A stretch of 64,000 bases of DNA from Lysobacteraceae bacterium (GCA_040079515.1 JBEBKD010000003.1:68165-132164), one strand, 5' to 3'; positions 38,076-53,926 are shown, counted from the stretch's first letter. Program-made: numbers and translations. The notes: generated from the sequence alone by a model not told the origin.

Positions 38076-38152
38076 GCGCCTGTAGCTCAGCCGGATAGAG
38101 TAGCGGCTTCCGAAGCCGTTGGTCGGGGGTTCGAATCCCTCCAGGCGCGCCA
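38076..38152 (+). tRNA. tRNA-Arg(CCG)
   Basis: 77 nt cloverleaf GCGCCTG...CAGGCGCGCCA; D arm TAGCTCAGCCGGATAGAGT; anticodon loop TTCCGAA (CCG at 38110-38112); TTCGAAT T-loop; encoded CCA. Confidence 0.97.
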
Positions 38153-38240
38153 TTTCGACAGCGACAACCGCCCCCAACGGACCCGACGACCCCTGCATTT
38201 CGCAGGGGTTTCGCGTTTTGGCCTGTTTGATGTACCGCTC

Positions 38241-39338
38241 GACATCGTCGTCACCTATGAGATCGACCGTCTCAGCCGCTCGCTGTACGACTTCGCCGAG
38301 CTGGTGAAGGTCTTCGACCGGCACGGCGTCACCTTCGTGTCGGTCACCCAACAGTTCAACACCACCGATGCGATGGGCCGGATGCTGCTGATCATCCTGC
38401 TGACCTTCGCCCAATTCGAGCGCGAACTGACCTCCGAGCGCATCCGCGACAAGTTTGCGGCCAGCAAGAGGAAGGGGATGTGGATGCACGGCATCACCCC
38501 GCTGGGCTACGACCTCAAGGATCGGAGACTGGTGATCAACGAAGCCGAGGCCGAGCAGGTGCGGACGTTGTTCCGGCGATTCGTCGAGGTTGGTTCGCTG
38601 ATGAAGGTGGCGCAGGAGGCGCGAGCGCGTGGCTGGCGCAACAAGGACTGGACGACGAAGTCCGGACGGCAGCACATCGGCAAGCGCCACGATCGCAGTT
38701 CGCTGCACAAGATCCTGCACTGCCGGACCTACCTCGGCGAGTTGAAGAGCCGGGATCAGTATTTCGAGGGGACGCACGCGCCGATCATCGACCGCGCCCT
38801 CTGGGATGCGGCACATGCCCGTCTGGCGGTGTGCAGCCGCACCCGCGCCGCCGCGTCGCGCGAGGGCAAGGTGCCCTTCCTGCTCAAGTGCCTGCTCACC
38901 GGCCCCGACGGGCGCGCGCTGACGCCCTGGCACACGACCAAGGCCGGCGGGCGGACCTACCGCTACTACCTCAGTACCCGTGACACCCACGAGGGCCGGG
39001 GTGCGTCGGGCCTGCCACGACTACCGGCGGCCGAACTGGAGGCCGCCGTCGTCGGGCAACTTCGGCACCTGCTCCGGGCACCGGAGATGATTGAGGCGAT
39101 AGTCCCGCAGGCCACCGCGCTCGACCCGACCCTGGACGCAGCGCAGGTGATGGTGGCGATGACTCAGGTCGAGCGGGTGTGGGACGAGCTATTTCCGGCA
39201 GAGCAACAGCGCCTTGTCCGCCTGCTGATCGACAAGATCATCGTGACCCCGACCAATCTGGAGCTCCGGCTACACCCCCTTGGCATCGGTAGCCTCGCCG
39301 CCGAGTCTCGCCGGGTCGCCGAAGGGGCTGAAGCATGA
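38241..39338 (+). pseudogene. Large serine recombinase, N-terminally truncated (catalytic Ser region missing)
   Basis: Homology starts abruptly at DIVVTYEIDRLSRSL...FAQFERELTSERIRDK...GMWMHG..PLGYD; recombinase domain and YRYY zinc-ribbon region follow; no YxRxS motif or start codon upstream. Confidence 0.85.
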
Positions 39339-39746
39339 CTCGGCCGACCCTTTCCATATCCGGCACGGCCAGCAAGGTGATCGCAAGCAACGGGAGCGTC
39401 GTCCTGAACGTCCCGATCGCCCTGAAGCGACGCAGCGGCCGCCGGGTAGTCCTGCCCGTCGGGGGCTGAAGCCGCAACCGGCCGGACAATCGCAACCCCG
39501 CTCCAACTAGCCCTGGCCCGCGGCCACCGCTGGCTGCGCATGCTGGAGACCGGCGAGGCCGACTCCATGTGCGACATCGCCCGCCGCGAAGGCACCAACC
39601 ACAGTTACATCGCCCGGCACATCAACCTGACCCTGTTGTCGCCGGAAATTGTCGCGGCAATTTTGGACGAGACGTTGCCGGAGGGGGTACAGCTATTGAT
39701 GTTGGCTATCAATCCACCAACGTTGTGGGAAGAGCAGATACGATGA
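39335..39746 (+). pseudogene. Small HTH-like protein typically coupled to these serine recombinases, frameshifted
   Basis: ATGA overlap with the recombinase; VPIALKRRSGRR then a +1 shift at the G5 run (39461-39465) into TPLQLALARGHRWLRMLE...SYIARHINLTLLSPEIVAAILD...WEEQ. Confidence 0.7.
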
Positions 39747-40280
39747 GCGGCACCGTCTGAATCTCCGTCGAGTGGAATGCCCGCCGCCGAAGACCGTCTA
39801 TGACTAGGCGTTGATGAGAATCTGGGCCATTTGCAGCATCACCACTTGAAGAGACCGGATGTTCGCAGTCTTTGCTTGGAATGTGGAATCCGAAGCGGGA
39901 ATGCTTGTGTCGATTTCCCTATGCAAATCAGTCATCTGCACTTCCCATACCTAGGAGACTCTGAAGTCGAAGAGTCACTTCGGCAACCGGGCGACCCCTT
40001 GATGCGTGACTAACGTCGGAAGCCAGAACGAGCCTCCGTAGCAAGCAATCGCCGGAAATTGGAGTGGACAATGGGTCCAGGCAACAGCCGCCGATCCAGT
40101 CCACCCTTGAACGATGGATCGAAGGCGACGCCTCGATCGTTCGGGACGAGATTGTAGTAAGGTGCAATCGGGTGAAAGGATACGATGGCTGCGAGCACCT
40201 CCGGAAAGGATGATCCGCCCTTGACCGACTGGTCGACGCTCGTTGCCATCATCGCGACGACGAATTGATAGGGGGCGTTA

Positions 40281-41363
40281 ATGTCGAATCCGCTAATGCC
40301 GGGCGATCCGATGACGGAGGCGCACAAGCAGCAACTGCTGGAGGCCATCCTCCAGAAAATGTCACCACAGGGCGAAAAACCGATCGTAAGGTACGACGTG
40401 TCGATCGATCCGGACATCGAGACCGCGATCCGTCGACTCGCCGACACCGGGACATCTGCAGAGACCGTCTTGAAGGCGCTTTGCAAGAAGGCCAACGAGA
40501 TGGAGACGGCGCTCGATAAACTGAATGCATCCTCGCAGCGGATGCTGAAAGCGCAAGACGACAAGTTGCAGGAGACCCAGCGCCGTTTGGATGCCGCGAG
40601 CGCTGCGCTCGATGGCATTCTGCAGAAGTCGAGCGCGAAGGCCGCTGAACTATCGATGGTGGCGGCAGGCATACCGCAGAACACCCACATTGTCCTGGCC
40701 GAAACCGCCGATGCCACAAGGAAGATTGTTGCCAGCCCCGTAGCTCGAGCGGAGGATGCGTTCGACCGCACCGGGCACGGCTCCGGCGATGAGCGACCGC
40801 CCTCGATTCCCGAAACATGGACGTCCACATCCGGGAACAACAGTACCGCGCCGAGAGGATGGCGTTTTCTCAACCAACCCATCCATGCGAAACATGCGTT
40901 CCATGGTGTTCTGTTGATCGTCGCTTGCACTGCGCTGGCCGCGATCCTGATGCGGGAGTGGAATCAATCCGGTGCCGAAGAAACGGACAGGGCCGCGAAC
41001 GACGTCCCTGCGCTCGAATCGGAACAAAAGGTCGAGCTGCCCCCTGAATCGCTTGAAGATTGCGCGCAGATGTTCGCGGCCCGGGATCCGTCGTGCGAAC
41101 GCCTCGCCGATGATTTCGACAAGGCGTTCTCGATCGGCCGGCACTGCAACAACAGCGACGATGCGTCCGCTGCCTTCTGCAAGCTTGCGAAGAGCCTGCC
41201 TGAAGCAGACGGCAGCGCCAGAAACGGCGGTTACCACTACAGCGCGCTCTGTGCCGTCGTTGCGGGAAGTGTCGCGGAAAATTGCAAACAGGGAATTTAC
41301 CGGACCGAGAAGCGGATGCGGGAAGCTGGCACTGTGGGCGATGGAGGAAACGGCTCTAATTGA
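40281..41363 (+). CDS. Hypothetical membrane protein: N-terminal coiled coil, one TM helix, Cys-rich extracytoplasmic C-terminus (360 aa)
   Basis: Heptad-rich segment (ANEMETALDKLNASSQRMLKAQDDKLQETQRRLDAASAALD); TM HGVLLIVACTALAAILM; six Cys in the C-terminal domain; first gene of an overlapping-stop/start operon. Confidence 0.7.
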   Translation: MSNPLMPGDPMTEAHKQQLLEAILQKMSPQGEKPIVRYDVSIDPDIETAIRRLADTGTSAETVLKALCKKANEMETALDKLNASSQRMLKAQDDKLQETQRRLDAASAALDGILQKSSAKAAELSMVAAGIPQNTHIVLAETADATRKIVASPVARAEDAFDRTGHGSGDERPPSIPETWTSTSGNNSTAPRGWRFLNQPIHAKHAFHGVLLIVACTALAAILMREWNQSGAEETDRAANDVPALESEQKVELPPESLEDCAQMFAARDPSCERLADDFDKAFSIGRHCNNSDDASAAFCKLAKSLPEADGSARNGGYHYSALCAVVAGSVAENCKQGIYRTEKRMREAGTVGDGGNGSN

Positions 41364-42460
41364 GCGCGCCGGCGGAGGCGGCGTTTCCTTCCGGGGGGAT
41401 GAAAGTCTGCACCGCAACGACCCGACCGCGGCATCGCGGCGAGCATGCGGCGTGTGGCAATGGCGCAACAGGACGAATTGCGGAGGGCGGTGTGGGGGCG
41501 TTGTCCGATTGGTCGACAGCACAGGGCATGCGCGGCGTGCATGTCTGGTTCCGGGGGGCCGAGGGCACCTCGGATTTCTCTATCGATGAACCGCCCGAAC
41601 AGCGCGGCGATCCTCTGTTCTCGGACATCCCTTACTGGTACCAGACGCTGCGCGGCGACACCTGGCTGGGCGAGCGTTTGTTTCTGGTTGCGGACGCCCT
41701 GTCGCGGGAAGACACCCATCACGCGGTCTATCTCAAGGACGGACGTCGTTACCTGATCGCGTACCGGATCCATCCGGGGAGCAGAGGTCGGCATGCGGAT
41801 TGCCGCTTTCACGACCTCGATCCCTGGTTGCGGCACTCCGACGCGATGACCGGCCCGTGGCGGGATGCGCTGGCCTGGCTGTGGGCGCCGTTGGCGGGGC
41901 AGCATCTCGTCGAAACGGGCTCCGGGGCTTCTCTTGTCTATACCGGGTATTCGGCGCCGGACGTCGCCGCGACCTGGATGCGCATGCACTGCGAAGCGAA
42001 AGCAGGCGACCGGCTGTTTTTCTGCGTGGACAGCCCGGACGCGCTGCATGCGCTTGCGCAATCGGTCGCAGGCGCAGCGCAGGCGCGTATTGCGCAACAG
42101 GCGCGCTTATTCGCCGCGATCGACCGTGGCATTGCCGACTTCATACAGCAACGGAACCGCTCTGGCTGCATGGCGTGGGGCGATCTCATTCTCAACGCCG
42201 TGCTGCTGAAGAAGTCGGCGCCGGTGCTGGTGAAAAGCGAGCCGGAAAGCGCATCGGTCAACGAGCGGATGGCGGACATGGTCCTCGCCGCGCTGGGCCT
42301 GTCCGATCGCGAGATGTGGCTTGAATTGTCGAAGTGCGGCGCGCATGCCGCGCTGCTGCAGAACCTGGGGGGCAGTCTCAGCGAAGGCTTAGATAATTGG
42401 GAGCTGCTGGTGATGGTGTATTTCTATTGCGAATCGATGAAAGGAGACAGGGGATCATGA
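41360..42460 (+). CDS. Hypothetical cytoplasmic protein, possibly GTPase-associated (GAP1-N-like)
   Basis: Long open frame coupled to both neighbours (TTGA and ATGA overlaps); YLIAYRIHPGSRGRH...FH segment recalls GAP1-N-type domains (by eye only). Start uncertain (41360, 41399 or 41528). Confidence 0.6.
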   Translation: MSAPAEAAFPSGGMKVCTATTRPRHRGEHAACGNGATGRIAEGGVGALSDWSTAQGMRGVHVWFRGAEGTSDFSIDEPPEQRGDPLFSDIPYWYQTLRGDTWLGERLFLVADALSREDTHHAVYLKDGRRYLIAYRIHPGSRGRHADCRFHDLDPWLRHSDAMTGPWRDALAWLWAPLAGQHLVETGSGASLVYTGYSAPDVAATWMRMHCEAKAGDRLFFCVDSPDALHALAQSVAGAAQARIAQQARLFAAIDRGIADFIQQRNRSGCMAWGDLILNAVLLKKSAPVLVKSEPESASVNERMADMVLAALGLSDREMWLELSKCGAHAALLQNLGGSLSEGLDNWELLVMVYFYCESMKGDRGS

Positions 42461-45054
42461 GGGCGCAAGAAGTCGCACAGGAGTTGGGGATCGGAATGGA
42501 TGCGATCCGCAAATTTCTTGGAAATGATGACATCACGGAAGATACGGTTCTGGACAAGATTGCGATCCAAAATCTGAAGCGAGAGTATGCACAGAAGCAA
42601 CAGCAACCTGTAGATTCTCCTGCACCGCAGCCTGTGGACCGGGGTGCCCAATGGGTTGCGGGTATGGCTACGCCCTCTGGTTTGAATTGGAGTTATGGCA
42701 GCGCTCATTCAGGACAACACAACCCAGGCAGTGGAACTAGCACAAACGACGCCGGCACTGCAAGCCCCAACAATAGCAGCGAGCACAGCAACGCCGAGGT
42801 AGATAACGAGAGTGTCCCCAGTGGGCGTGATATCAAGCTTGGCGCGTCCCAGAGATTTCTGGAGCCATATCAGGATTTCAAGAAAAAAATCTGCAACGCG
42901 CCTCACGCGATCATCCTTGGCGCGAGCGCAGTCGGCAAGTCGTGCTGCCTGTCGATCGCGACCAAAGCGATGGGCGTCAGGGCAGCCGACCACGATCTGG
43001 AAGGAACGATTCGTGAGACCTATCGGATCATCAAACTGTCTCAGGCGGGTCAGGGTCCTGATGGCACGCAATGCGTGCTGGTGGATATCGCTGGCGAATC
43101 CTTCATGGCGTGGCTGGGAACACAGCCGGGCGGGGAGGATCCCGACAATTGGGATACGGTATTCGGCAGCGATTTCAAACCTAAAGAAATTACGGACAGA
43201 GAACAACATCTCGTCCAGTATCTCAATCATGCGTCCGCGCTGTATGTCTTGTTGCTCGCGCCAGAGGGAAAAGACGAAACTGCGGAAATGCGCGTCCGCG
43301 CTGCCGCGAACTTTCTGGCCGAAAGCCGCATCCGTGGTATACGCAATAAGCTGGTGACCTTCCTGGTAGTGAAAGCGGACAAGCTTTATGCGCTGCGGGA
43401 CGCTACCGCTTATAAGCACAACGGTGTCGATCTGCGTGGAGATCGGGGCAGAGGCCCGGATTTGACCGCGGTCGACATCGAGAATCTTCCCATTATGGAT
43501 CTCGATGCATGGTTCGTAAAAGCCATGTCGGATGATCGACTTGGCCTCAACGCACTTAGAGCGGTGGACGACCGTGAGGATGACGGCGAAGGTCAGGCAC
43601 CTCGCTATCCTCGGCATTGGAATTACGCCGTAGTACTGCACCCCCCAAGGGACTATCTGCTGCGTTCTTCTCATGCCCAGCTAATGCGGAACGACATAAG
43701 CGACACCAGCAGAGTACTCTGGAGACAATTATCTTCGCGCCTTACCAATCAAATCAGGAGCCCTGAATACAAACGCGAAGAAAAAAAATATTCCGATTTC
43801 ATCAAGAGCGCATTCAGTATTCAGGAAATGCATGGGCAGCATACTACTGAAGTTTCGTCTGAGCGGCGATTACGCATCACCGCGATCGCCACGCCCTTTA
43901 TCTTGATGGCAATAGCTTTTTTTGGGCTGTTGTCAAAAGGTGATTTCGGTCAGCGCTTTTATCAGTTGAACATCCCAGAGACGCCGATCCGAATCGCCGT
44001 ATCCGATGGCGACAAGCCCGCTCCCTATCTGCGCATGGACCTTAAGGACAAGATCCGCATGCTGGCCGATATGACGATGCTCTACGAAAAAAACCGCCCC
44101 AAACTGTACACGATCCGTCAATACTCCCAGTCTTCGAGTGATCCGATGGAGGTAACCGCTGCTCGAAAAGCAGGAGGAACGAACTTTGGATGCGGCCAGA
44201 TCGCGGCTGCCAACAGTCCCGCCGCAGTCAAGTTGAAGACAATGCTGGAAGGCATCAGTCAAGGAACACCCACTTTCCCGGAAGTGTCCGACGATCAGAC
44301 ATCGAAGGTCGGGAAACTGTCGGGACTGGAAGATTGCAGGGACGCCGTGCTGCGCCTGTGGCGTTTACGCATGGCGTTCGCGATCAATGCCGCAAACCTT
44401 GATGAGGTTGGCGTGGATGTTGTCGTCGCGCAGGTGAAAACGATCGGCGAGATGTACGAATCGATCCGACAGGCCGATCCGACCTTGCTTGGCCTCGTGA
44501 ATCTGGAGAACGACCGGGCGCGCGATCTGCCCTTGATCGACAGCATTCTGTCTTCAGCGACAAAAGCGGCGGATGGCAAAACACCTGCTGAAAGCTATAC
44601 GCGGATTCCCGTGGGTGCTTCGACTCTGGGCGACAGTGCCGACGACCCCTGTCGATCGTTCCTGGTCGATGGTGTGATTCACGACAGCGGCAACCATGCA
44701 TCTTCGCCGGCCTGTGCGATTTACATGCTTCGTGCGGGCTGGCTGGATAAGAACGGTGCGCCCGTGAAGAGTCTGGCCGATCTGTACCTGCAGCTGCCCT
44801 ATGAACAGCAACAAGCCTACTGCAATGAATCTCTGAAGAACTGCACATCGACGCTGGAGCGGTGGAATTTTGATCACGATTCTGCCAAGAAAAAAGGCTG
44901 GCTTGCCCTACTGGTTATTCTAGGGCCGATTATATCGATTGTTTTGTGGTTCTGGCGCAAGCGGCTCATGCGTTTTCTGGATCGATGGCCATCGCTGCTG
45001 CATCCTTTCCTGTGGCAGCTCCGCATGAGGCGCGGTGCCGATGGCCAGGCATAA
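42457..45054 (+). CDS. Membrane-anchored TRAFAC-class GTPase with IF2-N-like N-terminal HTH (865 aa)
   Basis: AAGGAG RBS and ATGA overlap; G1 GASAVGKS (42919-42942); G3 DIAGE (43084); G4-like VKAD (43369-43380); TM helices ITAIATPFILMAIAFFGLL and GWLALLVILGPIISIVLWFW flank a ~300 aa extracytoplasmic domain. Confidence 0.8.
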   Translation: MRAQEVAQELGIGMDAIRKFLGNDDITEDTVLDKIAIQNLKREYAQKQQQPVDSPAPQPVDRGAQWVAGMATPSGLNWSYGSAHSGQHNPGSGTSTNDAGTASPNNSSEHSNAEVDNESVPSGRDIKLGASQRFLEPYQDFKKKICNAPHAIILGASAVGKSCCLSIATKAMGVRAADHDLEGTIRETYRIIKLSQAGQGPDGTQCVLVDIAGESFMAWLGTQPGGEDPDNWDTVFGSDFKPKEITDREQHLVQYLNHASALYVLLLAPEGKDETAEMRVRAAANFLAESRIRGIRNKLVTFLVVKADKLYALRDATAYKHNGVDLRGDRGRGPDLTAVDIENLPIMDLDAWFVKAMSDDRLGLNALRAVDDREDDGEGQAPRYPRHWNYAVVLHPPRDYLLRSSHAQLMRNDISDTSRVLWRQLSSRLTNQIRSPEYKREEKKYSDFIKSAFSIQEMHGQHTTEVSSERRLRITAIATPFILMAIAFFGLLSKGDFGQRFYQLNIPETPIRIAVSDGDKPAPYLRMDLKDKIRMLADMTMLYEKNRPKLYTIRQYSQSSSDPMEVTAARKAGGTNFGCGQIAAANSPAAVKLKTMLEGISQGTPTFPEVSDDQTSKVGKLSGLEDCRDAVLRLWRLRMAFAINAANLDEVGVDVVVAQVKTIGEMYESIRQADPTLLGLVNLENDRARDLPLIDSILSSATKAADGKTPAESYTRIPVGASTLGDSADDPCRSFLVDGVIHDSGNHASSPACAIYMLRAGWLDKNGAPVKSLADLYLQLPYEQQQAYCNESLKNCTSTLERWNFDHDSAKKKGWLALLVILGPIISIVLWFWRKRLMRFLDRWPSLLHPFLWQLRMRRGADGQA

Positions 45055-47419
45055 GTCCGCTCCGCAGCCAAGCCTGTCCGCCAGGCTTACGACGGCGCAT
45101 CTTGTTCTGTGGTCGATCGCGCTGATCGTCACGCTTGTCGTTCTTTTGTCAGCACGGACGATGTACACGCGGATGGAGGCCGAAGCGGCAACCACCGCAA
45201 GCGCCAGCCGCGACGACGATCGCGACGGCAACAGCATCGTCCACGCATTTCTGGACATCCGCGAACGCGACGAAGACGCGCCCTTTGAAAGCCTGTCAAT
45301 CCCTAAAGCTGGCGAAAAGACCGTGCGCCTGTGTACACAAGGCACGCAACGCAACAAGAAGGGAGACTGCGGGATGGGGCGGAAGGAGATCCTGTTCGAC
45401 GGGAAACGCGTCGATCTGGTCTTCGCCGCGCCGACACCGGAACAGGGGCGTTTGTACCTGAGAAGCCAGACGGCTGCCGAAGCCGACGTTTACGACTATG
45501 CCATCCCCCCCTGCAATGACCTCAAAGACTGGTGCCCTTTGGGAGATGGGCGCGTCGAAGCCAGGATCGTCCACTATGCCTTCGCGCCCACCCGTCTGCT
45601 GTGGTGGGCATCGCTCAGCATGCTCGCATGTCTGCTGCTGGCATGGCGAGCCGACACACCGCAGCCCGGCGACCTGCTGCCATCGGGCCTCGGGGTTCCA
45701 GCGGCGTTGAGCATATTGCTCGGCGTTCGCTTCTTGATCGCGGTCAATGCCACCATCAGCGACCATACACTCGCCCCGTATGTCGTTTTGACGGGCCTGG
45801 AACTGCTCCTGCTGCCGAGCGCATGCTGGATATTGATGCGGCGTGCCGATGCGCGGAAGCCATGGTTGTTGCTGTTGCCGCATCTGTCCCTGGTGGCGCT
45901 CTGGTGGATCGTGTCGAGCGACGTCAAGATTTCGCAATACCATCCGAACCTCGTCTGGCATCTGTTCCGCATGAAATTGTCCGTATTGACGGACCGTGGT
46001 GTGCTCGCGGTTTTCAGCGACGCCTTCCTGTCGGAACTGTTCGCGACCCTGTGCATTTACATCTCGGCGGTGGTATTTCTGTGCTCGAAAAAGGTCCGCT
46101 CTTTTCTCGGGCAGGATCATCGACGGCACATCCGATGGTTCGTATTGCTCACGCCTTTTCTGCTGGCCTGCCTGTCCCTGTGGATGGTTGGTCAACAGAG
46201 CGAACCTCGGTTTCACTGGTTCGCGTTCGCCTCTTTGTTCGCCTTAGTATTTTTCTGTATCGCGCGCTCGTTTTTGTCGCTCAAGCATCAGGGGCGGCCT
46301 TTGTTCGACAGGGCGGACTGGGCCGGGTTCGGCTTTCTGTTTGCGATGCTTGTGGTCGCGGTGGGCGTGTCTGTCAGACTGCGTGGAATTGATGCAGGCG
46401 CACTGTTGCTGGCGACGTTTGCCGTGAGCATGGTCGTCCATCCGATCCTGTTTTCGGCAAACAGCAACAGCACGTTCGCGGGATCGAAGGCCGATCGTCT
46501 CCTGGGCGGTATTGCGAAGTTTGGATTCATCGTCGCGGCTCTGGTGATGATTGCGATGCCGATCCTCAAGCTTCTGTACCTGCGCGACTTCGAGCAAGCG
46601 CTAACAGCCCAACAAGCCTTGCCGGCCGCTGCTGAGATGGCGCAAAAGGATTCGTCGGCCGCCGCATGGATGAAGACCATGGATGCGCCGGATGTCATGG
46701 GCATCACCGCTCGGCTCAATCCATGTCGCGTGGTTCCGGGCATCGCTGGTCGTCGCGACGGCTCCGCCAGCGGCGCTGGCGGTCCCGAGGGCAGCGAACA
46801 GCGCTCATCGTTGAGTGCGGAGGATGTCGCCTGGCTAGACGACTGCTTCTTGAAGAACGCCTATTCCGTCGTCGATTCAAGCACCCGGGAATATGTGGAG
46901 GAGGGGCATTATTCCGCGAGACTTTACGCTTGGCTCGTCGGCCACCCTTACGATCGCATCTGGGGCTACGAAAGCCTCGGCAAGCTGCAGGGCTATCAAC
47001 AAGCGATCGCCAACAGCGTGCCTGCCGAAGGCCGGTGGTTCCGGGGTGACCTGGATTTGCCCACCGCACACGCTTTGGGCACAAGGGGCACGTTCGATGG
47101 TTTCAGTTACGAATGGCTGGTCGGTCTGCACTGGATCAGGCCCTTCGGTCTGCTCGGCGTCTGCATGATTCTGATCGCCCATGTTCTGCTGTATGTCTCC
47201 ATCGCGCCGTCGAACCTCCTGGCCAGACTCTACGTCGCCGTGATCGGCATCGCATCGATGTGGCTGCCGCTGCAGACTCAGGGCGCATTCGTAATGATCG
47301 GCCAATCGACTCCGCTGTTGACGTTCACCTCGTTCGTCGGAGACTTCGTCGTCGTTCTGTGTCCGCTGCTGATTCTGCTCTGCATCCCGCCTTTCGTTCT
47401 CGAGAAGGAGGAGCGATGA
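45041..47419 (+). CDS. Polytopic membrane protein with a divergent SEDS (FtsW/RodA/SpoVE)-like C-terminal half (~792 aa)
   Basis: More than 10 hydrophobic segments; IDAGALL (DxG), GYQQAIA, LPTAHA...TFDGF, FGLLGV and IGQSTPLLTFTS follow the order of the FtsW motifs DlG, gyQ, LPeahtDF, GlvG and tGxtLPfiSyG; directly upstream of a PBP. Confidence 0.65.
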   Translation: MARHKSAPQPSLSARLTTAHLVLWSIALIVTLVVLLSARTMYTRMEAEAATTASASRDDDRDGNSIVHAFLDIRERDEDAPFESLSIPKAGEKTVRLCTQGTQRNKKGDCGMGRKEILFDGKRVDLVFAAPTPEQGRLYLRSQTAAEADVYDYAIPPCNDLKDWCPLGDGRVEARIVHYAFAPTRLLWWASLSMLACLLLAWRADTPQPGDLLPSGLGVPAALSILLGVRFLIAVNATISDHTLAPYVVLTGLELLLLPSACWILMRRADARKPWLLLLPHLSLVALWWIVSSDVKISQYHPNLVWHLFRMKLSVLTDRGVLAVFSDAFLSELFATLCIYISAVVFLCSKKVRSFLGQDHRRHIRWFVLLTPFLLACLSLWMVGQQSEPRFHWFAFASLFALVFFCIARSFLSLKHQGRPLFDRADWAGFGFLFAMLVVAVGVSVRLRGIDAGALLLATFAVSMVVHPILFSANSNSTFAGSKADRLLGGIAKFGFIVAALVMIAMPILKLLYLRDFEQALTAQQALPAAAEMAQKDSSAAAWMKTMDAPDVMGITARLNPCRVVPGIAGRRDGSASGAGGPEGSEQRSSLSAEDVAWLDDCFLKNAYSVVDSSTREYVEEGHYSARLYAWLVGHPYDRIWGYESLGKLQGYQQAIANSVPAEGRWFRGDLDLPTAHALGTRGTFDGFSYEWLVGLHWIRPFGLLGVCMILIAHVLLYVSIAPSNLLARLYVAVIGIASMWLPLQTQGAFVMIGQSTPLLTFTSFVGDFVVVLCPLLILLCIPPFVLEKEER

Positions 47420-50184
47420 GAAGATTCACGGGTGTCCGGGCTTTCCTGACGAACGGGATGTCGCTCGCGATCGCGGCGTGTTCGCTCGTTTTCGTCTTCG
47501 GCGGATGGGCGGCGCGCGAGCAGGGGCGTCTCCACAACACGCTGGGTCTGCATGCGGCTCCGGCGATGTACCGGTCGCGAATCGAAGGTCATGAGCAATA
47601 CCTTCAAACGACCGCATTCAGATCGAATCGCCTCGGTGTGATCCATTCAAGTGAGCGCGACCAGTCCGGTCGTGAGATCAAGAAATACAGATGCCGCATG
47701 CCTGCCTACGACATCCGATGGCGTCGGTCCGACATCAACGTCAACGAGCATTTGAACGCACGCGAGAAAATAGGCCTGCGCGACACCCCGGCGGCATGCG
47801 GCGACCTTCGCGTATCGAATGCATCGAATCCCGGCCGTAGCGGTTCGGAGCGCTGGATGGATTTCGGCGAGCAGGTCGCTGTGATTCCGATGGTCTCCGC
47901 GACGAGACGCCACTCCGGAATCGACTACCCCGTCGAGCTGCGATATTCGGACAGCACCCCGATTCTGCCGAGAGAAACCCTGGTGCATATCGAACCCCGG
48001 TCCGCAGGCGGCCCGGCGCTGACCGTCCGCATGTCTTTCGATGCCAAGAATACTTGCACCGCGTCTTACTTCGACGGCAGGCTCAGTGACTGCGGAGGGC
48101 TTCCGTCGGCCCGGAACGGCGACGTGGTTCCGATTCGGGGGCCGGGCCCGATCGTCAAAGGCGTGTATCTGGATACGGATCGCAACGACAGCGCGGCGGA
48201 CGTCGCCACTATTTTCATCGATGCGGAAGGCATGATCCGGGTCAGCGGCCACCACTTGTCGACCGCTGCCGATACTGACGCGACCGCAGAACAGACGCAG
48301 GACTTCGATCTTCCCTGCAGCGCGGGGAGTCGACGGGAAGGCGCGGTAGTCCGGCGTTTCAGCGTGGGCCACAAGGCGTATGGTCTGCGCGTTTGGTGCG
48401 AAAACAGCCGGCCCCTGCCGACGACCGAAGCGCAGCGCCTCGCGGACAGGGCATCGAAAGAGGCGCGTTCATCGACAGCGGACGAAGCGCTGGTCGAAAG
48501 CGCTCTGGACACCCGCCTGGATGCGGAATTGAACCGTGCGCTGCGCGAGCGGTGCCCGCATTGCGAAGTGCTGGTGATGGATACCTTCCGCGGATCGGTA
48601 GTCGCCATGGCAAGCGGCCGCGTCGCGAAGGACAAGGACGGAATGCGGGTCACCAACTTCGAGCGCAAGCCCCAGGGCTCGGTGGTCAAACCCATCTATG
48701 CCACCGCAGCGCTCGAAAGCACGGAAGGGGATCGCGGCACGGCGGTCAGCCCGCTGCTGTCGCTTCGTATGTCGTCGTTGCAGCCCGATTACCTCGATCC
48801 CAAGAGAGGATGGATGTCCTGTCGCGTCGCCAACGGCGCCATTCCGGGCTGCCTTCGCGATCGGAAAGGGGGATACGACACTCACGCGGTTGGAGGCGAG
48901 TACGATTTCTATCGATTCATGGTCAGATCCGAGAACGTCTACGCGACGACCCTGCTTTATCTGGGCAGCAGCAGACCTTTGAGCGATGCGGACGGCGATT
49001 GCGAGAACGCTTTCGAACTCCTTCCCGCTGTGCCGGAAGTCGATGCCTGGCAGCTGACGATCGAGGGTCGGGATGCGCGCGACTGGGCCGCGAAGCGTGT
49101 TCCGCTGTTTAATTCAAGGTCGAAACTCTCCTGTTTGAATACCGGGATGCTGCCCTGGCTGTCGTGGCTGCGCGAGCACATGAACATCGGCCGTCGCAAC
49201 GAGTATTTCAGGTCCTACCTCTGGCTGGACGAGCATCGCGCTGCGCTGCGCATCGAAGGCCTGCACTCGTTGGCGCCAGAACTCGAACACGCAACTCTTT
49301 TCGAAAAAGAAGGCGTATGGCGCAGACAAGGCTTCATCGAGTCCAGTGTGTACAAATCCCCTTACGGCGGGGGGGACGCGCTGTGGACGAATGTGGGCAT
49401 CGCCGAGGCGATTTCGACGATCGTCTCGGGCAGTGACCAGAAAGCGTCGTTGTTGGCGCATTCGCTTCGCGCAGAACCCAGCGCGTCGCCACTGGGTTCG
49501 TCGCGCGCTGCCGTGGCAAAAGCTATGGCCGGCGTAGTGGGAGATCCGGAGGGTACCGCGAACCGGTATTTCCATTCGATGATCGAGGCCTGCGGCCCTT
49601 CGCCTCAAGCCTGCGTGCGCACACAGCAGTATGGGCCTATCCGGGTCCTGGCGAAGACAGGAACGCCGAAACGGAGCCCGGATGGCGGTCACGCTAAAAA
49701 AAGGATCGAAGCGCGCTTCCCGGTGCTGACAGGCGGTCGATCCCGCAGCGCATTGTGCCAGCCCTTCGAAGGGAATCGTTCGAGCTGTCGATTGACTGCG
49801 GAAGGCGATACTCTGTTCCGAACCGTGTCGATGGCGTACCGATACAGCAGCACATCGGACAACCTCGGCAAACGGCTCGATGACAAGGCGCTGCGCGGCG
49901 CATTTCAACGCTGGTTGTCGGAGGAAATCCTGGCCAGCGACAGCGGCGATGGGCCTTCCGAAGGCGGCAGCGACGATCAAGGCCAAGAAAGCCGTCTCGT
50001 GGTCGTGCTGTTGCAGCCTGCGCAAAACGAAGAAGCGATGCCCAAGGCAGGATGTACGCTGGTGATGACTTCGGAAACGAAGAACCCTCAAGCACTGGTG
50101 GATATCCTCGGACAACTGTTGCGCGGTGAGAGCTTGTTGCGATCCTGCCGCTTCTTGCCCGTGCAGGCGGATTCAACCAGATGA
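47416..50184 (+). CDS. Penicillin-binding protein, transpeptidase domain with large N-terminal extension (922 aa)
   Basis: AAGGAGGAG RBS and ATGA overlap; N-terminal TM; VLVMDTFRGSVVAMAS; SxxK = GSVVKP (48679-48690), SxN = SEN (48928-48936), KTG = AKTGT (49654-49662). Confidence 0.85.
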   Translation: MRRFTGVRAFLTNGMSLAIAACSLVFVFGGWAAREQGRLHNTLGLHAAPAMYRSRIEGHEQYLQTTAFRSNRLGVIHSSERDQSGREIKKYRCRMPAYDIRWRRSDINVNEHLNAREKIGLRDTPAACGDLRVSNASNPGRSGSERWMDFGEQVAVIPMVSATRRHSGIDYPVELRYSDSTPILPRETLVHIEPRSAGGPALTVRMSFDAKNTCTASYFDGRLSDCGGLPSARNGDVVPIRGPGPIVKGVYLDTDRNDSAADVATIFIDAEGMIRVSGHHLSTAADTDATAEQTQDFDLPCSAGSRREGAVVRRFSVGHKAYGLRVWCENSRPLPTTEAQRLADRASKEARSSTADEALVESALDTRLDAELNRALRERCPHCEVLVMDTFRGSVVAMASGRVAKDKDGMRVTNFERKPQGSVVKPIYATAALESTEGDRGTAVSPLLSLRMSSLQPDYLDPKRGWMSCRVANGAIPGCLRDRKGGYDTHAVGGEYDFYRFMVRSENVYATTLLYLGSSRPLSDADGDCENAFELLPAVPEVDAWQLTIEGRDARDWAAKRVPLFNSRSKLSCLNTGMLPWLSWLREHMNIGRRNEYFRSYLWLDEHRAALRIEGLHSLAPELEHATLFEKEGVWRRQGFIESSVYKSPYGGGDALWTNVGIAEAISTIVSGSDQKASLLAHSLRAEPSASPLGSSRAAVAKAMAGVVGDPEGTANRYFHSMIEACGPSPQACVRTQQYGPIRVLAKTGTPKRSPDGGHAKKRIEARFPVLTGGRSRSALCQPFEGNRSSCRLTAEGDTLFRTVSMAYRYSSTSDNLGKRLDDKALRGAFQRWLSEEILASDSGDGPSEGGSDDQGQESRLVVVLLQPAQNEEAMPKAGCTLVMTSETKNPQALVDILGQLLRGESLLRSCRFLPVQADSTR

Positions 50185-50193
50185 AGAGATGAC

Positions 50194-51029
50194 TGGAGCC
50201 TACCTCAAAATCGAAATCTGAGAAAAACTGCTTCAAAATATCGGGATGGTGAAGATTTCAGACGCGCATTGGGACCGGATCAGGCATCACTTTCCGGAAG
50301 AGAGCATCCCCGACGAGAGGCCCGGCCGTAAGCCGGTGCCTGCACGACGGGTGCTTGATGCGGTGTTGTGGATGCTGAAGACCGGCGCGCAATTGCATAT
50401 GCTTCCGCAATCGTATCCGAACTACAAGACCGTGCATCGTCGGTTCCAGATGTGGGCGGAGCAGGAGGTGTTGCGCGGCATCCTGGTCGATCTGTCGAAC
50501 GAGCTACGGGACCAGGATCTGCTCGATACGTCCGAGTGTTACATCGACGCGACGTTCGCGAACGGGCGTGGTGGGGGGTTGGAGATCGGCAATACGACGT
50601 GCGGAAAAGGCGTGAAATCATGGCGGTCGTGGATAGTGCAGGTCTACCGCTATCGGTGAGCACGCATGCGGCGAACCACCATGAGGTGAAGCTGGTGCAG
50701 ATGAGCTTCGACTTCTACATGATCGAGGCGATGCCGGACGTCTTGATTGGCGATCGTGCATACGACAGCGGCGATCTGGACGACGATTTGCGCGGCAAGG
50801 GCGTAAAGATGGTGTCGCCGCATCGGAAGAACAGGAAGAAGCCGAAGACACAGTATGGTCGGGAGTTGCGGAGATACAAGCGACGCTGGATCGTGGAGAG
50901 GTTCTTCGCCTCGATGAAGCACAAGCGCCGGTTACTGAATCGTTGGGAACTGTATCCGGAGAATTTTCTCGGGTTTGTGCAGATTTCCGCCGTGGTTTTG
51001 CTGCTCAGGCAATTTTGAGATGGGTTCTA
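50194..51029 (+). mobile_element. IS5-family insertion sequence (degenerate)
   Basis: Terminal inverted repeats TGGAGCCTACCTCAAAAT vs TAGAACCCATCTCAAAAT (reverse complement of the right end), 14/18 match; ~835 bp; encodes the transposase below. Confidence 0.85.
50246..51018 (+). pseudogene. IS5-family DDE transposase in two frames
   Basis: Frame 1: DAHWDRI...GRKP...VLDAVLWMLKTG...YKTVHRRF...YIDAT. Frame 2 (-1): IMAVVDSAGLP...GDRAYD...YKRRWIVERFF. Shift at GTG AAA TCA near 50615. Confidence 0.85.
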
Positions 51030-52097: not shown

Positions 52098-53471
52098 TTA
52101 TTTCGTTCCCATCTCCCGCGCAGCGCGCACACCAGACAAATAGGCACCATGAGTGGTACTGGAGTAGTTGCGCTCGGTCGCCTCGCCCGCGAAGAACAGG
52201 GCACCTTCGAGTGGAGCGGCCAGCGCATCGCGCGTGGCGGGCGTGGTACCCAGCGCATTGAACGAGTAGGAGCCGCGTGCAAAGGGATCGCGATGCCAGC
52301 GGGTAATCTGCACGTCGAGCGGTTCGGGAATATTGTCTCCAAGCATGATCCGCAGCGTGCGCATCGCGTCCTCAACGATCGCCTTGTCGTTCCAGCCTTC
52401 GATCTCGATCCCGCGATCCGCGGCGTTGAAGCCGAGCAGCACCGGTTGCCGCGCGACACGCTGGAAGCTCACCCATTCGGTCCATGCACCCGGCGTTTCC
52501 GGGAGGTATTCCAGCCAGTCGGCGTCCTTGTCCCAAAACGCTTCTGGAAATTTCAGGTAACACTTGTTCAGGGTGCCCATGCCCAGGCGTTCGATGGCCT
52601 CGCGCTTGGCAGCGGGCAATTCGGGAACGAAGCGGACGCTTCCGGCTTTGAGTACGCCCAGCGGTAAGGTGATCAACACTTGCTGGGCCTCGAACTCGCC
52701 GGAGGACGTGACCACGCGAACCATGCCGCGTCGCCAGTGGATCTCGCGCACCACCTGATCGAGTTCGATCTGCAAACCCTCGGCCAGATGATCGGCGATC
52801 ACCCGGAAGCCGTCGGCGAACAGCATGTCGCCGCCGCCGAAGCCGTCTGCGGCATCAAACCAGTGGGCCGACAACTGCGACGCGCCGCCCGCGTATTCCT
52901 GCTCGATGTCGGCGCTGACCGCGAACGCCAGGTCGCGACGCTGCGCAGGCGTCGCCTTGATCTTCGTCGACAGCGCATCGACCACAGATTGCACCGAAAC
53001 ATCGCGATCACGCTGCTGGGCGCGCTCCAATGCATCGGCAAGCCGTTTGCGCAGCGCGTCCAGTGCTGCGGCACGGGGGCCCTCGACTGCGCTCCCGTCC
53101 GTATCGTGCAGAACGCTGCGATCGTATTCGGTACGCAGTCTCTTGGCCTGGTGGCCATCGGCCAACCCGGTGATCGGGTTGCCGCGCACGCCGTGGATCC
53201 AGGTCGCCCCCAGATCCAACGGCAACTCGGGCCACCGCCTGCTGGTCCAGACGCGGCCGCCGATGCGGTCGCGCGCTTCCAGTACCAGCACTTCGCGCCC
53301 CGCGGCTTGGAGTCTGCGCGCGGCGGACAGACCAGCCAGCCCCGCACCGATCACAAGAGTCCGCCTCGCTGGTTTCGCCTGATCTGTGCGCTGCGATGCA
53401 GCCGCCTGCACACCGCCGTGGGCACTCAGCGCGATCAAGCCCAGAAGTTCCATGAATTGCCGTCTTTTCAT
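52098..53471 (-). CDS. Tat-exported flavin-dependent amine oxidase (polyamine oxidase/MAO family, 457 aa)
   Basis: MKRRQFMELLG twin-Arg signal; VIGAGLAGL, LEARDRIGGR, DLGATWIHG, ITLPLGVLK, WHRDPFARGSYS, FAGEAT and HGAYLSG motifs. Confidence 0.9.
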   Translation of the reverse strand: MKRRQFMELLGLIALSAHGGVQAAASQRTDQAKPARRTLVIGAGLAGLSAARRLQAAGREVLVLEARDRIGGRVWTSRRWPELPLDLGATWIHGVRGNPITGLADGHQAKRLRTEYDRSVLHDTDGSAVEGPRAAALDALRKRLADALERAQQRDRDVSVQSVVDALSTKIKATPAQRRDLAFAVSADIEQEYAGGASQLSAHWFDAADGFGGGDMLFADGFRVIADHLAEGLQIELDQVVREIHWRRGMVRVVTSSGEFEAQQVLITLPLGVLKAGSVRFVPELPAAKREAIERLGMGTLNKCYLKFPEAFWDKDADWLEYLPETPGAWTEWVSFQRVARQPVLLGFNAADRGIEIEGWNDKAIVEDAMRTLRIMLGDNIPEPLDVQITRWHRDPFARGSYSFNALGTTPATRDALAAPLEGALFFAGEATERNYSSTTHGAYLSGVRAAREMGTK

Positions 53472-53859
53472 GCGGTGACTACGCCTCCGAGCACGCATGT
53501 GTGCTGGCGACAGGATATCTGCAGCCGGCGCGCGCGTGCGACACGGCCTCTTGCCATCCACCGCCAGAACGCCCTTCCACCCCTCGATTGCTGATTCGGA
53601 TTGGAATGCATCTCCCGAAGACGAGGCGGTCACTACGTGGGTGAGGATGGTGCGTTGCAATAGCCGGGAGCCCCTCGCTGGGGCCTTGCTTCACTACGCT
53701 GCGCTGCGATCAGGCCTGAGGCGGCGTTTGGATTTCTCGCGCTCTGGCTGCACCATTCCCTTCCGTCGAAACACTTCGGTCGGGATTGCCGGGCCTTCAC
53801 TCTTCGCGCGACGCGTTCGCCACCACGCGCGGCAGTGCCGCGCAAGCGTCGCGTCTTAC

Positions 53860-53926
53860 CCCTCCAGTCGCGCAAAATCGACCAGGACAACCGCGCTCTG
53901 CGGTACCAACGACCCCTGCATTTCGC
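53860..53926 (+). repeat. Degenerate att copy: tRNA 3' end plus 51 nt of the element's left arm
   Basis: Ungapped 53/67 match to 38137-38203, with GACAACCGC and ACGACCCCTGCATTTCGC exact. Confidence 0.8.

What the first reader, a model, noticed from the sequence alone, without database searches (positions are those of the whole stretch)
45041..50184. Highly divergent, extended SEDS-bPBP pair outside the dcw/mrd clusters
Seen: the SEDS-like motifs are in the correct order but with insertions (LPTAHALGTRGTFDGF vs LPEAHTDF), plus an added N-terminal TM and periplasmic domain. The PBP has ~350 aa of non-canonical beta-rich sequence before the transpeptidase domain. Established: the Asp of the PEAHTDF loop is the SEDS catalytic residue. 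Inference: the pair either makes specialised peptidoglycan or, if the Asp is displaced, acts as a lipid-II sensor or decoy. A divergent PBP could also confer beta-lactam tolerance.
Basis: partly seen in the sequence, partly recalled or inferred. Interest (0 to 1): 0.7.

Follow-up and report, generated by a model that had tools for sequence, protein, structure and literature searches.

The report
Hidden GTPase-linked cell-wall synthase pair
Two coupled genes on a mobile island encode a clear but very divergent penicillin-binding transpeptidase and a 14-helix membrane protein whose last third faintly resembles the RodA/FtsW wall polymerases; they belong to a very rare, unannotated five-gene operon with a membrane GTPase, which may be an undescribed switchable wall-building machine.

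Summary
Both ORFs are real: gene 4 at 45041-47419 and gene 5 at 47416-50184. They are translationally coupled and lie far from the genome's canonical ftsW/ftsI and rodA/pbp2 loci.

Gene 5 is firmly a PBP-type transpeptidase. SxxK, SxN and KTGT are invariant in relatives only 19-32% identical. hhalign against class B PBPs gives 98% probability (E 4e-14). The top 50 Foldseek hits are all class B PBPs. Its first ~350 residues show no pedestal similarity.

The SEDS assignment for gene 4 is only moderately supported. No Pfam or NCBIfam model hits it, and the fold search was uninformative. However, the C-terminal module aligns with SEDS TM8-ECL5 (P 1.3e-4; controls at least 0.075). In a whole-genome search with the family HMM, RodA is the best non-self hit among 12,764 ORFs. 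The invariant residues are D672, E693, the D453xG455 motif and a GxxPxxGxxxPL...S loop.

The pair forms the end of a five-gene operon on a 15.7-kb tRNA-Arg island: coiled-coil membrane protein, unknown protein, two-TM GTPase, gene 4, gene 5. The cassette is conserved in about 11 sequence clusters among 1.8 billion proteins and was absent from every genome collection searched.

Best reading, at about 55% confidence: a GTPase-associated accessory glycan-polymerase/transpeptidase machine.

The parts
38076..38152 (+). tRNA-Arg(CCG), attachment site of the island
   Evidence: ARAGORN
38137..38203 (.). Left direct repeat: tRNA 3' end plus downstream sequence. With its 79%-identical partner at 53860-53926 it delimits a ~15.7-kb island.
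   Evidence: the repeat finder family D1
38241..39338 (+). N-terminally truncated large serine recombinase. The Resolvase match starts at profile position 65 of 145.
   Evidence: Pfam Resolvase 1.7e-20, Recombinase 8e-12
40281..41363 (+). Gene 1: 360-aa bitopic protein with a cytoplasmic coiled coil, one TM helix (residues 206-224) and a Cys-containing outer domain.
   Evidence: Hydropathy. Orthologues are present in L001 and L041. The positional counterpart in L049 ends in a LysM domain, E 2.6e-11.
41360..42460 (+). Gene 2: ~366-aa soluble protein of unknown fold. Its TTG start overlaps the gene 1 stop.
   Evidence: no family hit
42457..45054 (+). Gene 3: 865-aa GTPase. G1 is GASAVGKS, G2 is T184, G3 is DIAGE with an invariant Glu, and G4 is VKAD. 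After the G domain come a TM helix (474-492), a ~320-aa outer domain and a second TM helix (814-832).
   Evidence: Alignment A5 invariant columns, hydropathy, motifs verified
45041..47419 (+). Gene 4: 792-aa membrane protein with about 14 TM helices, the SEDS-like candidate. Residue numbers count from the GTG at 45035.
45092..45586 (+). Gene 4 extra N-terminal TM helix (residues 20-38) plus a beta-rich region predicted to be extracytoplasmic (39-184).
   Evidence: Hydropathy and DSSP of the AlphaFold model, low confidence
46391..46399 (+). Gene 4 D453-A-G455 at the outer end of a TM helix. D is present in 11 of 12 members and G in all 12. It aligns with the SEDS ECL3 motif QPDxG.
   Evidence: A3; hhalign P 0.0016 in the core run
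46583..47116 (+). Gene 4 large outer loop (residues 517-694), the ECL4-like position. It holds the invariant residues R629, Y631, W633, P638, P663, G671, D672, G689 and E693.
47057..47104 (+). It is present but LPTAH is not conserved, and D688 is conserved in only 9 of 12 members.
47111..47113 (+). Gene 4 E693 of the Y-E-[WH] motif, invariant. It lies 12 residues before the TM8-like GxxG, whereas the SEDS catalytic Asp lies 11 residues before it. This makes it the candidate catalytic acid (inference).
   Evidence: A3, hhalign register
47273..47344 (+). Gene 4 loop QTQGAFVMIGQSTPLLTFTSFVGD. It aligns in register with the SEDS ECL5 motif GxLPxxGxxLPLxSYGGS.
   Evidence: hhalign Prob 54%, P 1.3e-4; hmmsearch alignments to RodA and FtsW
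47416..50184 (+). Gene 5: 922-aa bitopic PBP-like protein. It has a TM anchor (residues 10-33), a ~320-aa unclassified N-terminal domain and a transpeptidase domain from about residue 354.
48679..48690 (+). Gene 5 SxxK motif (S422-V-V-K425), invariant in the family.
48928..48936 (+). Gene 5 SxN motif (S505-E-N507), invariant.
49654..49665 (+). Gene 5 KTGT motif (K747-T750), invariant.
50368..51018 (+). IS5-type DDE transposase fragment downstream of the operon, inside the island.
   Evidence: Pfam DDE_Tnp_1 1.8e-15
53860..53926 (.). Right direct repeat of the island.

Best explanation
Genes 4 and 5 most likely encode a private, extremely divergent counterpart of a SEDS-class B PBP synthase pair.

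Gene 4 would be a polytopic lipid-linked-glycan polymerase. Its last six helices keep the SEDS layout: a DxG loop, two helices, a large outer loop ending in an invariant acidic residue, a helix with GxxG, a helix, a GxxPxxGxxxPL...S loop, and a final helix. Four extra N-terminal helices and an outer beta domain are added.

Gene 5 is a membrane-anchored acyl-serine transpeptidase with an intact SxxK/SxN/KTG centre behind a novel ~320-aa N-terminal domain that replaces the pedestal.

The two are made in fixed ratio by translational coupling. They probably work as one complex with the three upstream products: a coiled-coil bitopic protein (peptidoglycan-binding LysM in one relative), a soluble protein, and a two-TM GTPase with its own outer domain. 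Wall or glycan synthesis by the pair would then be gated by a nucleotide switch.

The cassette is horizontally mobile island cargo, not part of housekeeping growth or division.

Shown: the ORFs, the coupling, the PBP homology, the conserved synteny, the rarity and the island. Inferred: SEDS ancestry of gene 4, complex formation, the substrate and GTPase control.
For: Gene 5
- The family alignment keeps S422/K425, S505/N507 and K747-T-G-T invariant at 19-32% identity.
- The family profile hits 50 PDB sequences, essentially all PBPs.
- hhalign against 28 bPBPs gives Prob 98.2%, E 4.3e-14 over 277 columns.
- The Foldseek top 50 are all class B PBPs, including the RodA-PBP2 and FtsWIQLB complexes.

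Gene 4
- hhalign of the family C-terminus against 31 SEDS gives Prob 54%, P 1.3e-4, score 36. Reversed SEDS, Wzy_C, MurJ and their reverses give P of at least 0.075 and scores of at most 18.7.
- The core run gives two collinear SEDS matches: DxG with QPDxG at P 0.0016, and TM8-ECL5 at P 0.015.
- The family C-terminal HMM was run against all 12,764 six-frame ORFs of the genome. RodA is the best non-self hit and FtsW the sixth, both in the same register.
- An HMM built without the window or its close orthologue still ranks gene 4 first and RodA second. Single distant members pick RodA or FtsW at ranks 2-5.

Context
- A gene 5 homologue overlaps the end of the gene 4 homologue in all seven related contexts.
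- The gene 3 homologue precedes it in every related context where the upstream region is complete.
- The junctions are ATGA overlaps with Shine-Dalgarno sequences.
- dN/dS is 0.29-0.53 across the five genes.
- One positional gene 1 counterpart carries LysM.
- GTPase motifs G1-G4 are invariant.
Against: - No curated model recognises gene 4 or any of its 11 relatives as SEDS.
- The AlphaFold model is weak (pLDDT 58). Foldseek found no significant hit; RodA ranked 13th with E 2.3 and TM-score 0.29.
- Reciprocal searches with a SEDS HMM do not lift family members above background; only P0008 gives a 9-bit domain in register.
- The SEDS ECL2 QPSExxK pair and the PExHTDF motif are not conserved.
- The N-terminal eight helices show no SEDS similarity.
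- Wzy_C gave secondary matches of P 0.015-0.023 in the core run, so part of the signal may be generic to this class of membrane enzymes.
- Gene 5 lacks a detectable pedestal domain, the element through which bPBPs bind and activate SEDS partners.
Confidence: 0.55

Rival explanations
1. Gene 4 is not SEDS-derived. It would be an unrelated polytopic protein, such as a transporter, flippase, scaffold or other glycan or lipid enzyme, that partners with a PBP-like protein. The short SEDS-like loops would then be convergent or chance similarities between glycine/proline-rich membrane loops.
For: - No Pfam, NCBIfam or PDB hit for gene 4.
- Foldseek was negative.
- Reciprocal HMM searches were weak.
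- The protein has 14 rather than 10 helices, and ECL2 and the PExHTDF motif are absent.
- hhalign probability is only 54%, or 16-18% with longer queries.
Against: - The similarity is specific to SEDS among the tested controls.
- It is collinear at two sites.
- It falls on loops known to line the SEDS active site: ECL3 P196/G199 and ECL5 G371/G381 of FtsW (PMC8765783).
- It is recovered independently by several family members in an unbiased whole-genome search.
- The obligate, overlapping bPBP-like partner is what a SEDS homologue would be expected to have.
Confidence: 0.22
2. The cassette is a transmembrane sensor rather than a synthase. The PBP-like domain of gene 5 would bind muropeptides, D-Ala-D-Ala termini or beta-lactams. 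Gene 4 would act as a lipid II-binding pseudoenzyme or scaffold. The signal would pass to the gene 3 GTPase, much as BlaR1 or PASTA kinases sense the wall.
For: - The GTPase has its own outer domain and an N-terminal HTH-like segment (IF2_N weak).
- Canonical SEDS catalytic motifs are degraded in gene 4.
- The pedestal is missing from gene 5.
- The cassette sits on an accessory island.
Against: - All three PBP catalytic motifs are invariant across very divergent members. That goes beyond what ligand binding alone requires, although an acylation-type sensor such as BlaR1 would also retain them.
- Gene 4 keeps invariant acidic and glycine residues in outer loops.
- No output domain (kinase, protease or DNA-binding effector) is recognisable in the operon.
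Confidence: 0.13
3. The genes are decaying or non-functional cargo of a degraded island.
For: - The island recombinase is truncated and an IS fragment lies next to the operon.
- dN/dS is relatively high at 0.29-0.53.
Against: - All five ORFs are intact and coupled.
- The same five genes are intact in other contexts at identities from 83% down to about 20%.
- Catalytic residues are invariant and dN/dS is below 1.
Confidence: 0.03

Closest known systems
SEDS-class B PBP synthase pairs (RodA-PBP2/MrdA, FtsW-FtsI, SpoVE-SpoVD)
   Same: - A polytopic membrane protein is paired with a bitopic SxxK/SxN/KTG transpeptidase, and the two genes are adjacent and co-inherited.
- The gene 5 transpeptidase domain is homologous to bPBPs.
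- The gene 4 C-terminal third aligns with SEDS TM8-ECL5, and a DxG loop aligns with ECL3.
   Different: - Gene 4 is twice the length, with about 14 helices, an extra outer beta domain and a 180-aa ECL4-like loop.
- It has no QPSExxK or PExHTDF motif and is invisible to PF01098.
- Gene 5 has no detectable pedestal (PF03717) and has a ~130-aa insertion between SxN and KTG.
- Gene order is polymerase then PBP, with overlapping codons.
- The pair is embedded in an operon with a GTPase, sits on a mobile island and is extremely rare.
Non-canonical SEDS/bPBP architectures catalogued by Garcia-del Portillo et al. 2025 (PMC12516126)
   Same: That survey reports SEDS glycosyltransferases with an outward-facing beta-sheet-rich region and bPBP-type transpeptidases lacking the pedestal. 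It proposes that such forms pair with each other. This is the same combination seen here.
   Different: Their proteins were found through the Pfam/InterPro SEDS and transpeptidase domains. The present family falls below those models' thresholds, so it is outside that catalogue. That paper does not mention GTPases (0 occurrences).
DO-GTPase 'GTPase-centric' conflict systems (Kaur, Burroughs, Iyer, Aravind 2020, PMC7159879)
   Same: - A TRAFAC GTPase with a conserved Glu directly after the Walker B DxxG (DIAGE here, invariant).
- TM segments, outer domains beyond the TM, and peptidoglycan-binding modules in some members.
- Sporadic, island-borne distribution.
   Different: - There is a single GTPase, no zinc ribbon, and no recognisable GAP1 partner.
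- No Pfam model for those families matches.
- That paper mentions neither FtsW/RodA nor transpeptidases.

Membership tests
SEDS (FtsW/RodA/SpoVE, PF01098) | Match to the curated family model above its cut-off | tested here: not met
   There is no PF01098 or NCBIfam SEDS hit for gene 4, for any of the 12 family members, or for ten isolated C-terminal modules, even at E up to 10. The same model finds the genome's FtsW and RodA at about 1e-97.
SEDS (FtsW/RodA/SpoVE, PF01098) | Ten-TM core with a large outer loop (ECL4) between TM7 and TM8 | tested here: inconclusive
   About 14 helices are predicted. The last six, with a 180-aa outer loop before the final three, follow the SEDS TM5-TM10 pattern with correct in/out parity. 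The first eight helices have no counterpart.
SEDS (FtsW/RodA/SpoVE, PF01098) | ECL2 QPSExxK signature (Glu-Lys pair; FtsW Q147) | tested here: not met
   The window reads QQSEPRF at the corresponding loop. This is not conserved in the family alignment and no invariant Glu or Lys is present. The reference residues come from PMC8765783 and from my own knowledge of the RodA structure.
SEDS (FtsW/RodA/SpoVE, PF01098) | ECL3 PDxG motif (FtsW P196, G199) | tested here: inconclusive
   D453 is present in 11 of 12 members and G455 in all 12. The motif is at the outer end of a helix and aligns to QPDlGt by hhalign with P 0.0016 in the core run and 0.19 for the short fragment. The Pro is absent.
SEDS (FtsW/RodA/SpoVE, PF01098) | Catalytic Asp of the PExHTDF motif at the end of ECL4 (RodA D262, FtsW D297) | tested here: inconclusive
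E693 is invariant and lies one residue off the expected spacing to the TM8 GxxG. The GD at 671-672 is also invariant. The alignment in this stretch has low confidence.
SEDS (FtsW/RodA/SpoVE, PF01098) | TM8 EExGxxG and ECL5 GxxPxxGxPLPxxSYGGS signature (FtsW G371, G381) | tested here: met
   The family consensus P-F-G-x-x-G ... Q-G-v-F-P-x-x-G-x-s-x-P-L-L-T-x-x-S aligns in register with RodA and FtsW. This holds in hhalign (P 1.3e-4) and in hmmsearch. The EE pair and the YGGS motif themselves are replaced.
SEDS (FtsW/RodA/SpoVE, PF01098) | RodA/FtsW-like fold | tested here: inconclusive
   The AlphaFold2 model has pLDDT 58 and pTM 0.67. Foldseek against PDB gave nothing below E 0.36, and RodA (8tj3_B) came at E 2.3 with TM-score 0.29.
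SEDS (FtsW/RodA/SpoVE, PF01098) | Lipid II glycosyltransferase activity | not testable with these tools
   Needs purified protein and lipid II.
Class B penicillin-binding protein | Penicilloyl-serine transferase domain with SxxK, SxN and KTG | tested here: met
   S422xxK425, S505xN507 and K747TGT are invariant in six members at 19-83% identity. hhalign against bPBPs gives 98.2%, E 4e-14. Foldseek top hits are all bPBPs, with E down to 2e-5.
Class B penicillin-binding protein | Match to Pfam Transpeptidase (PF00905) above its cut-off | tested here: not met
   The score is 14.9 bits against a cut-off of 22.1, covering only residues 385-435. The whole-genome scan with PF00905 did not report it.
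Class B penicillin-binding protein | N-terminal membrane anchor followed by the pedestal / PBP dimerisation domain (PF03717) | tested here: not met
   The TM anchor is present at residues 10-33. There is no PF03717 hit, and hhalign against full-length bPBPs aligns nothing before residue 354. The model of that region has very low confidence.
DO-GTPase / GAP1 conflict systems | TRAFAC GTPase with a conserved Glu after Walker B | tested here: met
   DIAGE has D210, G213 and E214 invariant, alongside G1, G2 and G4. The defining feature is as described in PMC7159879.
DO-GTPase / GAP1 conflict systems | Cognate GAP1 protein and, often, paired GTPases with zinc ribbons | tested here: not met
   There is a single GTPase gene. 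No family hit was found for gene 2 or for any neighbour, and no zinc-ribbon domain was reported in the family scans.

The most novel reading that the evidence does not exclude
The five genes are a self-contained, horizontally mobile 'fourth kind' of SEDS/bPBP machine whose activity is gated by its own membrane GTPase. It would be an inducible envelope repair or immunity module. It would lay down or re-cross-link wall material, or deliberately consume lipid II, when the outer domains of genes 1 and 3 sense envelope attack by phage, lytic enzymes or antibiotics. It would belong to a wider, so far undescribed class of GTPase-linked private wall synthases. Earlier notes of this scan report that class in several other phyla.
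Probability: 0.2. Interest if true: 0.88.

Novelty: new variant of a known kind. Interest (0 to 1): 0.7.

Why it matters
SEDS-bPBP pairs are the core wall-building enzymes of bacteria and major antibiotic targets. Only three functional contexts are known: elongation, division and sporulation.

A lineage so divergent that curated models miss it would add a new regulatory logic for wall synthesis. Here that lineage is locked to a GTPase and carried on mobile DNA.

It would also mean that surveys based on Pfam domains undercount peptidoglycan synthases. An unrecognised PBP with an intact active site on a mobile island is also relevant to how beta-lactam-insensitive cross-linking activities could spread, although nothing here shows resistance.

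If gene 4 proves not to be a polymerase, the cassette is still an unannotated, conserved envelope-spanning GTPase system that contains a catalytically intact PBP.

Tried and rejected
Searches that led nowhere
- Pfam, NCBIfam, PADLOC and PDB sequence searches of gene 4 found nothing. The same held for all family members, the family profile against PDB and ten isolated C-terminal modules at E up to 10.
- Word-indexed homologue searches returned only the 83% orthologue, both with the single sequence and with the alignment.
The metagenome scan re-found one known locus.
- Six-frame searches found the family only in the window's own genome. These covered 60 relatives' genomes with the gene 4 protein and 400 genomes of the class with the family alignment. 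One marginal hit with a stop codon was dismissed.
- The literature search for GTPase-linked or orphan SEDS found nothing matching.

Structure and profile tests
- AlphaFold2 plus Foldseek for gene 4 was uninformative.
- Reciprocal SEDS HMM searches were weak.
- The gene 3 family profile against PDB gave nothing significant.

Readings considered and rejected
- O-antigen ligase/Wzy_C identity for gene 4: hhalign gives P of at least 0.015, and 0.14 for the C-terminus.
- MurJ-like flippase: P of at least 0.099.
- Gene 5 as a beta-lactamase or low-molecular-weight carboxypeptidase: all top fold and profile matches are high-molecular-weight class B PBPs, and it has the N-terminal anchor.
Full report
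**What is there**

The window is GC-rich, about 64%. The finding covers two + strand ORFs.
- Gene 4 runs from ATG 45041 (an upstream GTG lies at 45035) to 47419.
- Gene 5 runs from 47416 to 50184. The longer frame from 47113 is an artefact of GC-rich sequence.
- The real gene 5 start is an ATG that overlaps the gene 4 stop as ATGA, five bases after AAGGAGGAG.

The pair is the distal end of five translationally coupled genes:
- Gene 1, 40281-41363.
- Gene 2, 41360-42460.
- Gene 3, 42457-45054.
- Gene 4 and gene 5 as above.

The operon lies in a lower-GC stretch that starts immediately after tRNA-Arg(CCG) at 38076-38152. This stretch contains an N-terminally truncated large serine recombinase and an IS5-type transposase fragment. 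It is bounded by a 67-nt direct repeat, 38137-38203 and 53860-53926, 79% identical. It is therefore a ~15.7-kb integrated island.

The genome's canonical SEDS and bPBP genes are elsewhere. FtsW/FtsI are on contig C4 and RodA/PBP2 on C15, while the window is on C3.

**Rarity and conservation**

Word-indexed searches of 5.8 billion proteins found only one other copy of each protein, 82-83% identical, from an SRA assembly. That contig carries the same five genes in a different neighbourhood.

An exhaustive HMMER scan of 1.84 billion cluster representatives with gene 4 found just 11 representatives. They are 18-23% identical overall, and the similarity is concentrated in the last ~170-200 residues.

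I fetched the contigs of several of these. In every case the gene 4 homologue is followed, with overlapping codons, by an 855-931-aa gene 5 homologue. Wherever the upstream region is complete, it is preceded by a gene 3 homologue (split in two in L047) and two ~290-330-aa genes.

phmmer confirms homology:
- Genes 3, 4 and 5 are homologous across cassettes.
- Genes 1 and 2 are homologous in the nearer cassettes.

The family was absent from every genome collection I searched:
- 60 genomes of relatives, 36 of them from the same genus.
- 400 genomes of the class.
- Pattern scans of 185,579 species representatives.

Between the window and its 83% orthologue, dN/dS is 0.29-0.53 for the five genes. 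These are real proteins under purifying selection, but they evolve fast.

**Gene 5 is a PBP**

Pfam gives only a sub-threshold Transpeptidase match: 14.9 bits, residues 385-435. The family evidence is much stronger.
- An alignment of six orthologues, 19-83% identical, keeps S422xxK425, S505xN507 and K747-T-G-T invariant, plus a GGxDxxW...AE block and GTA.
- A profile of that alignment hits 50 PDB sequences, essentially all PBPs.
- hhalign against 28 full-length proteobacterial PBP2/FtsI sequences gives 98.2% probability and E 4.3e-14 over residues 354-760. The catalytic motifs are in register.
- The AlphaFold model is poor (pLDDT 45), yet its 50 best Foldseek matches are all class B PBPs. TM-scores reach 0.5 against isolated transpeptidase domains.

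Nothing before residue 354 aligns to the pedestal domain, and PF03717 does not hit. A ~130-aa insertion sits between SxN and KTG.

**Is gene 4 a SEDS protein?**

Curated models say no. There are no hits for gene 4 or any relative, nor against PDB sequences. The AlphaFold model (12-sequence alignment, pLDDT 58, pTM 0.67) found no significant structural neighbour. RodA ranked 13th, E 2.3.

Four more sensitive tests give a consistent weak signal.

(i) hhalign of the family's C-terminal 140 residues against 31 SEDS proteins, which I extracted from genomes of the phylum, gives Prob 54%, P 1.3e-4 and score 36. It aligns P-F-G-x-x-G (TM8) and Q-G-v-F-P-x-x-G-x-s-x-P-L-L-T with EExGxxG and GxLPxxGxxLPLxS. 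The reversed SEDS profile, 27 Wzy_C proteins, 25 MurJ proteins and their reverses give P of at least 0.075 and scores of at most 18.7.

(ii) With the whole polytopic core as query, two collinear SEDS matches appear. One is D453xG455 on QPDxG (P 0.0016) and the other is TM8-ECL5 (P 0.015). Reversed SEDS and MurJ give at least 0.16, but Wzy_C gives 0.015-0.023.

(iii) An HMM of the C-terminal module was run with all filters off against all 12,764 six-frame ORFs of at least 150 aa in the genome. RodA is the best non-self hit (E 0.2) and FtsW the sixth, both in the same register.

(iv) An HMM built only from the ten distant members finds gene 4 first (1.6e-36), RodA second (E 0.09) and FtsW tenth. 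Single members P0008, P0009 and P0013 pick RodA or FtsW at ranks 2-5.

The reciprocal search with SEDS HMMs is weak.

Topology from hydropathy and positive-inside reasoning fits. The DxG loop, the 180-aa loop and the GxxPxxG loop all face outward. The order is DxG, two helices, big loop, three helices with the glycine/proline loop between the last two. This reproduces SEDS TM5-TM10.

The loops that match correspond to FtsW ECL3 (P196, G199) and ECL5 (G371, G381). Dominant-negative mutations map there, around the proposed active site (PMC8765783).

What does not match:
- The ECL2 QPSExxK signature. The window reads QQSEPRF, but this is not conserved.
- The PExHTDF motif.
- The eight N-terminal helices.

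I put SEDS ancestry of the C-terminal module at roughly 70-75%. Membership in the family as currently defined fails.

LPTAHALGTRGTFDGF is in the sequence. However, LPTAH becomes LPDAR in the 83% orthologue and is unrecognisable further out, and D688 is Ser or Asn in three of twelve members.

The invariant residues nearby are G671-D672, G689, E693 and G697. Counting back from the TM8-like GxxG, E693 lies 12 residues upstream. The SEDS catalytic Asp lies 11 residues upstream. E693 is therefore the better candidate for a catalytic acid. This is inference from spacing, because hhalign confidence is low in that stretch.

**The rest of the operon**

Gene 3 is a TRAFAC-type GTPase.
- G1 (GxxxxGKS), G2 (T184), G3 (DIAGE) and a G4-like xKxD motif are conserved in five members.
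- After the G domain come a TM helix, a ~320-aa outer domain and a second TM helix.
- The invariant Glu after DxxG is the hallmark given for DO-GTPases of predicted conflict systems (PMC7159879).
- There is no second GTPase, zinc ribbon or recognisable GAP1.
- That paper mentions no SEDS or transpeptidase.

Gene 1 is a coiled-coil bitopic protein. Its positional counterpart in one cassette ends in a LysM peptidoglycan-binding domain, E 2.6e-11. Gene 2 is soluble and unclassifiable.

PADLOC has nothing for any of the five.

**Interpretation**

The best-supported reading is a dedicated envelope machine. A SEDS-derived polymerase and a pedestal-less class-B-like transpeptidase are made in fixed ratio. 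They are associated with a membrane GTPase and a wall-binding coiled-coil protein, and the whole set is carried on mobile DNA. I give this about 55%.

The rivals are:
- Gene 4 is unrelated to SEDS (about 22%).
- The cassette is a wall or beta-lactam sensor rather than a synthase (about 13%).
- The genes are decaying cargo (about 3%).

Whether the module serves defence, repair or some specialised morphogenesis is open. Island location, sporadic distribution, fast evolution and the DO-GTPase-like Glu lean towards a conflict or stress role.

**Relation to what is known**

A 2025 survey (PMC12516126) describes SEDS proteins with outward beta-rich regions and bPBPs without a pedestal, and suggests that they pair. 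This is the same architectural idea. Those proteins were found through the Pfam domains that this family escapes, and no GTPase link is made there.

Earlier notes of this scan list several other 'GTPase-linked divergent SEDS/bPBP' cassettes in other phyla. I could not test relatedness, so I treat them only as leads. They suggest that this may be one branch of a wider undescribed class.

I rate the finding a new variant of a known kind.

Noticed in passing
window 38076-39338 and 53860-53926: tRNA-Arg(CCG) is followed by a large serine recombinase that lacks its N-terminal catalytic part. A 67-nt direct repeat (79% identical) lies 15.7 kb downstream. This looks like a degraded integrative island. 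I saw two repeat copies, not the three mentioned in another first-stage note.
   Followed up: partly
window 50368-51018: An IS5-type DDE transposase ORF (216 aa, partial profile coverage) lies directly downstream of the operon.
   Followed up: no
L049:437-1300 and L047:2927-4975: In a marine or sediment metagenome assembly (GCA_002754915.1) two paralogous cassettes occur. One has a gene 1 counterpart ending in LysM. In the other, the GTPase gene is split in two and begins with a biotin/lipoyl-like domain instead of the HTH-like N-terminus.
   Followed up: partly
window 40281-50184 vs L001:3696-13532: dN/dS of 0.29-0.53 between 60-83%-identical orthologues is unusually high for envelope biosynthetic enzymes. 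Gene 1 evolves fastest.
   Followed up: partly
L001:3347-3667 and L002:471-791 (minus strand): A 106-aa gene divergently oriented just upstream of the cassette is shared by the two close relatives. I did not check whether the window has a counterpart in 39338-40281.
   Followed up: no
window 52098-53660 (minus strand): A flavin amine-oxidase-like ORF with a twin-arginine-like signal sequence lies inside the island between the IS fragment and the right repeat. This was judged by eye from the translation and not searched.
   Followed up: no
L041:2037-3032: In the wastewater-type metagenome contigs, the cassette neighbours a gene with a type I restriction helicase C-terminal-like domain (T1RH-like_C). 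This is a faint hint of a defence-island setting.
   Followed up: no
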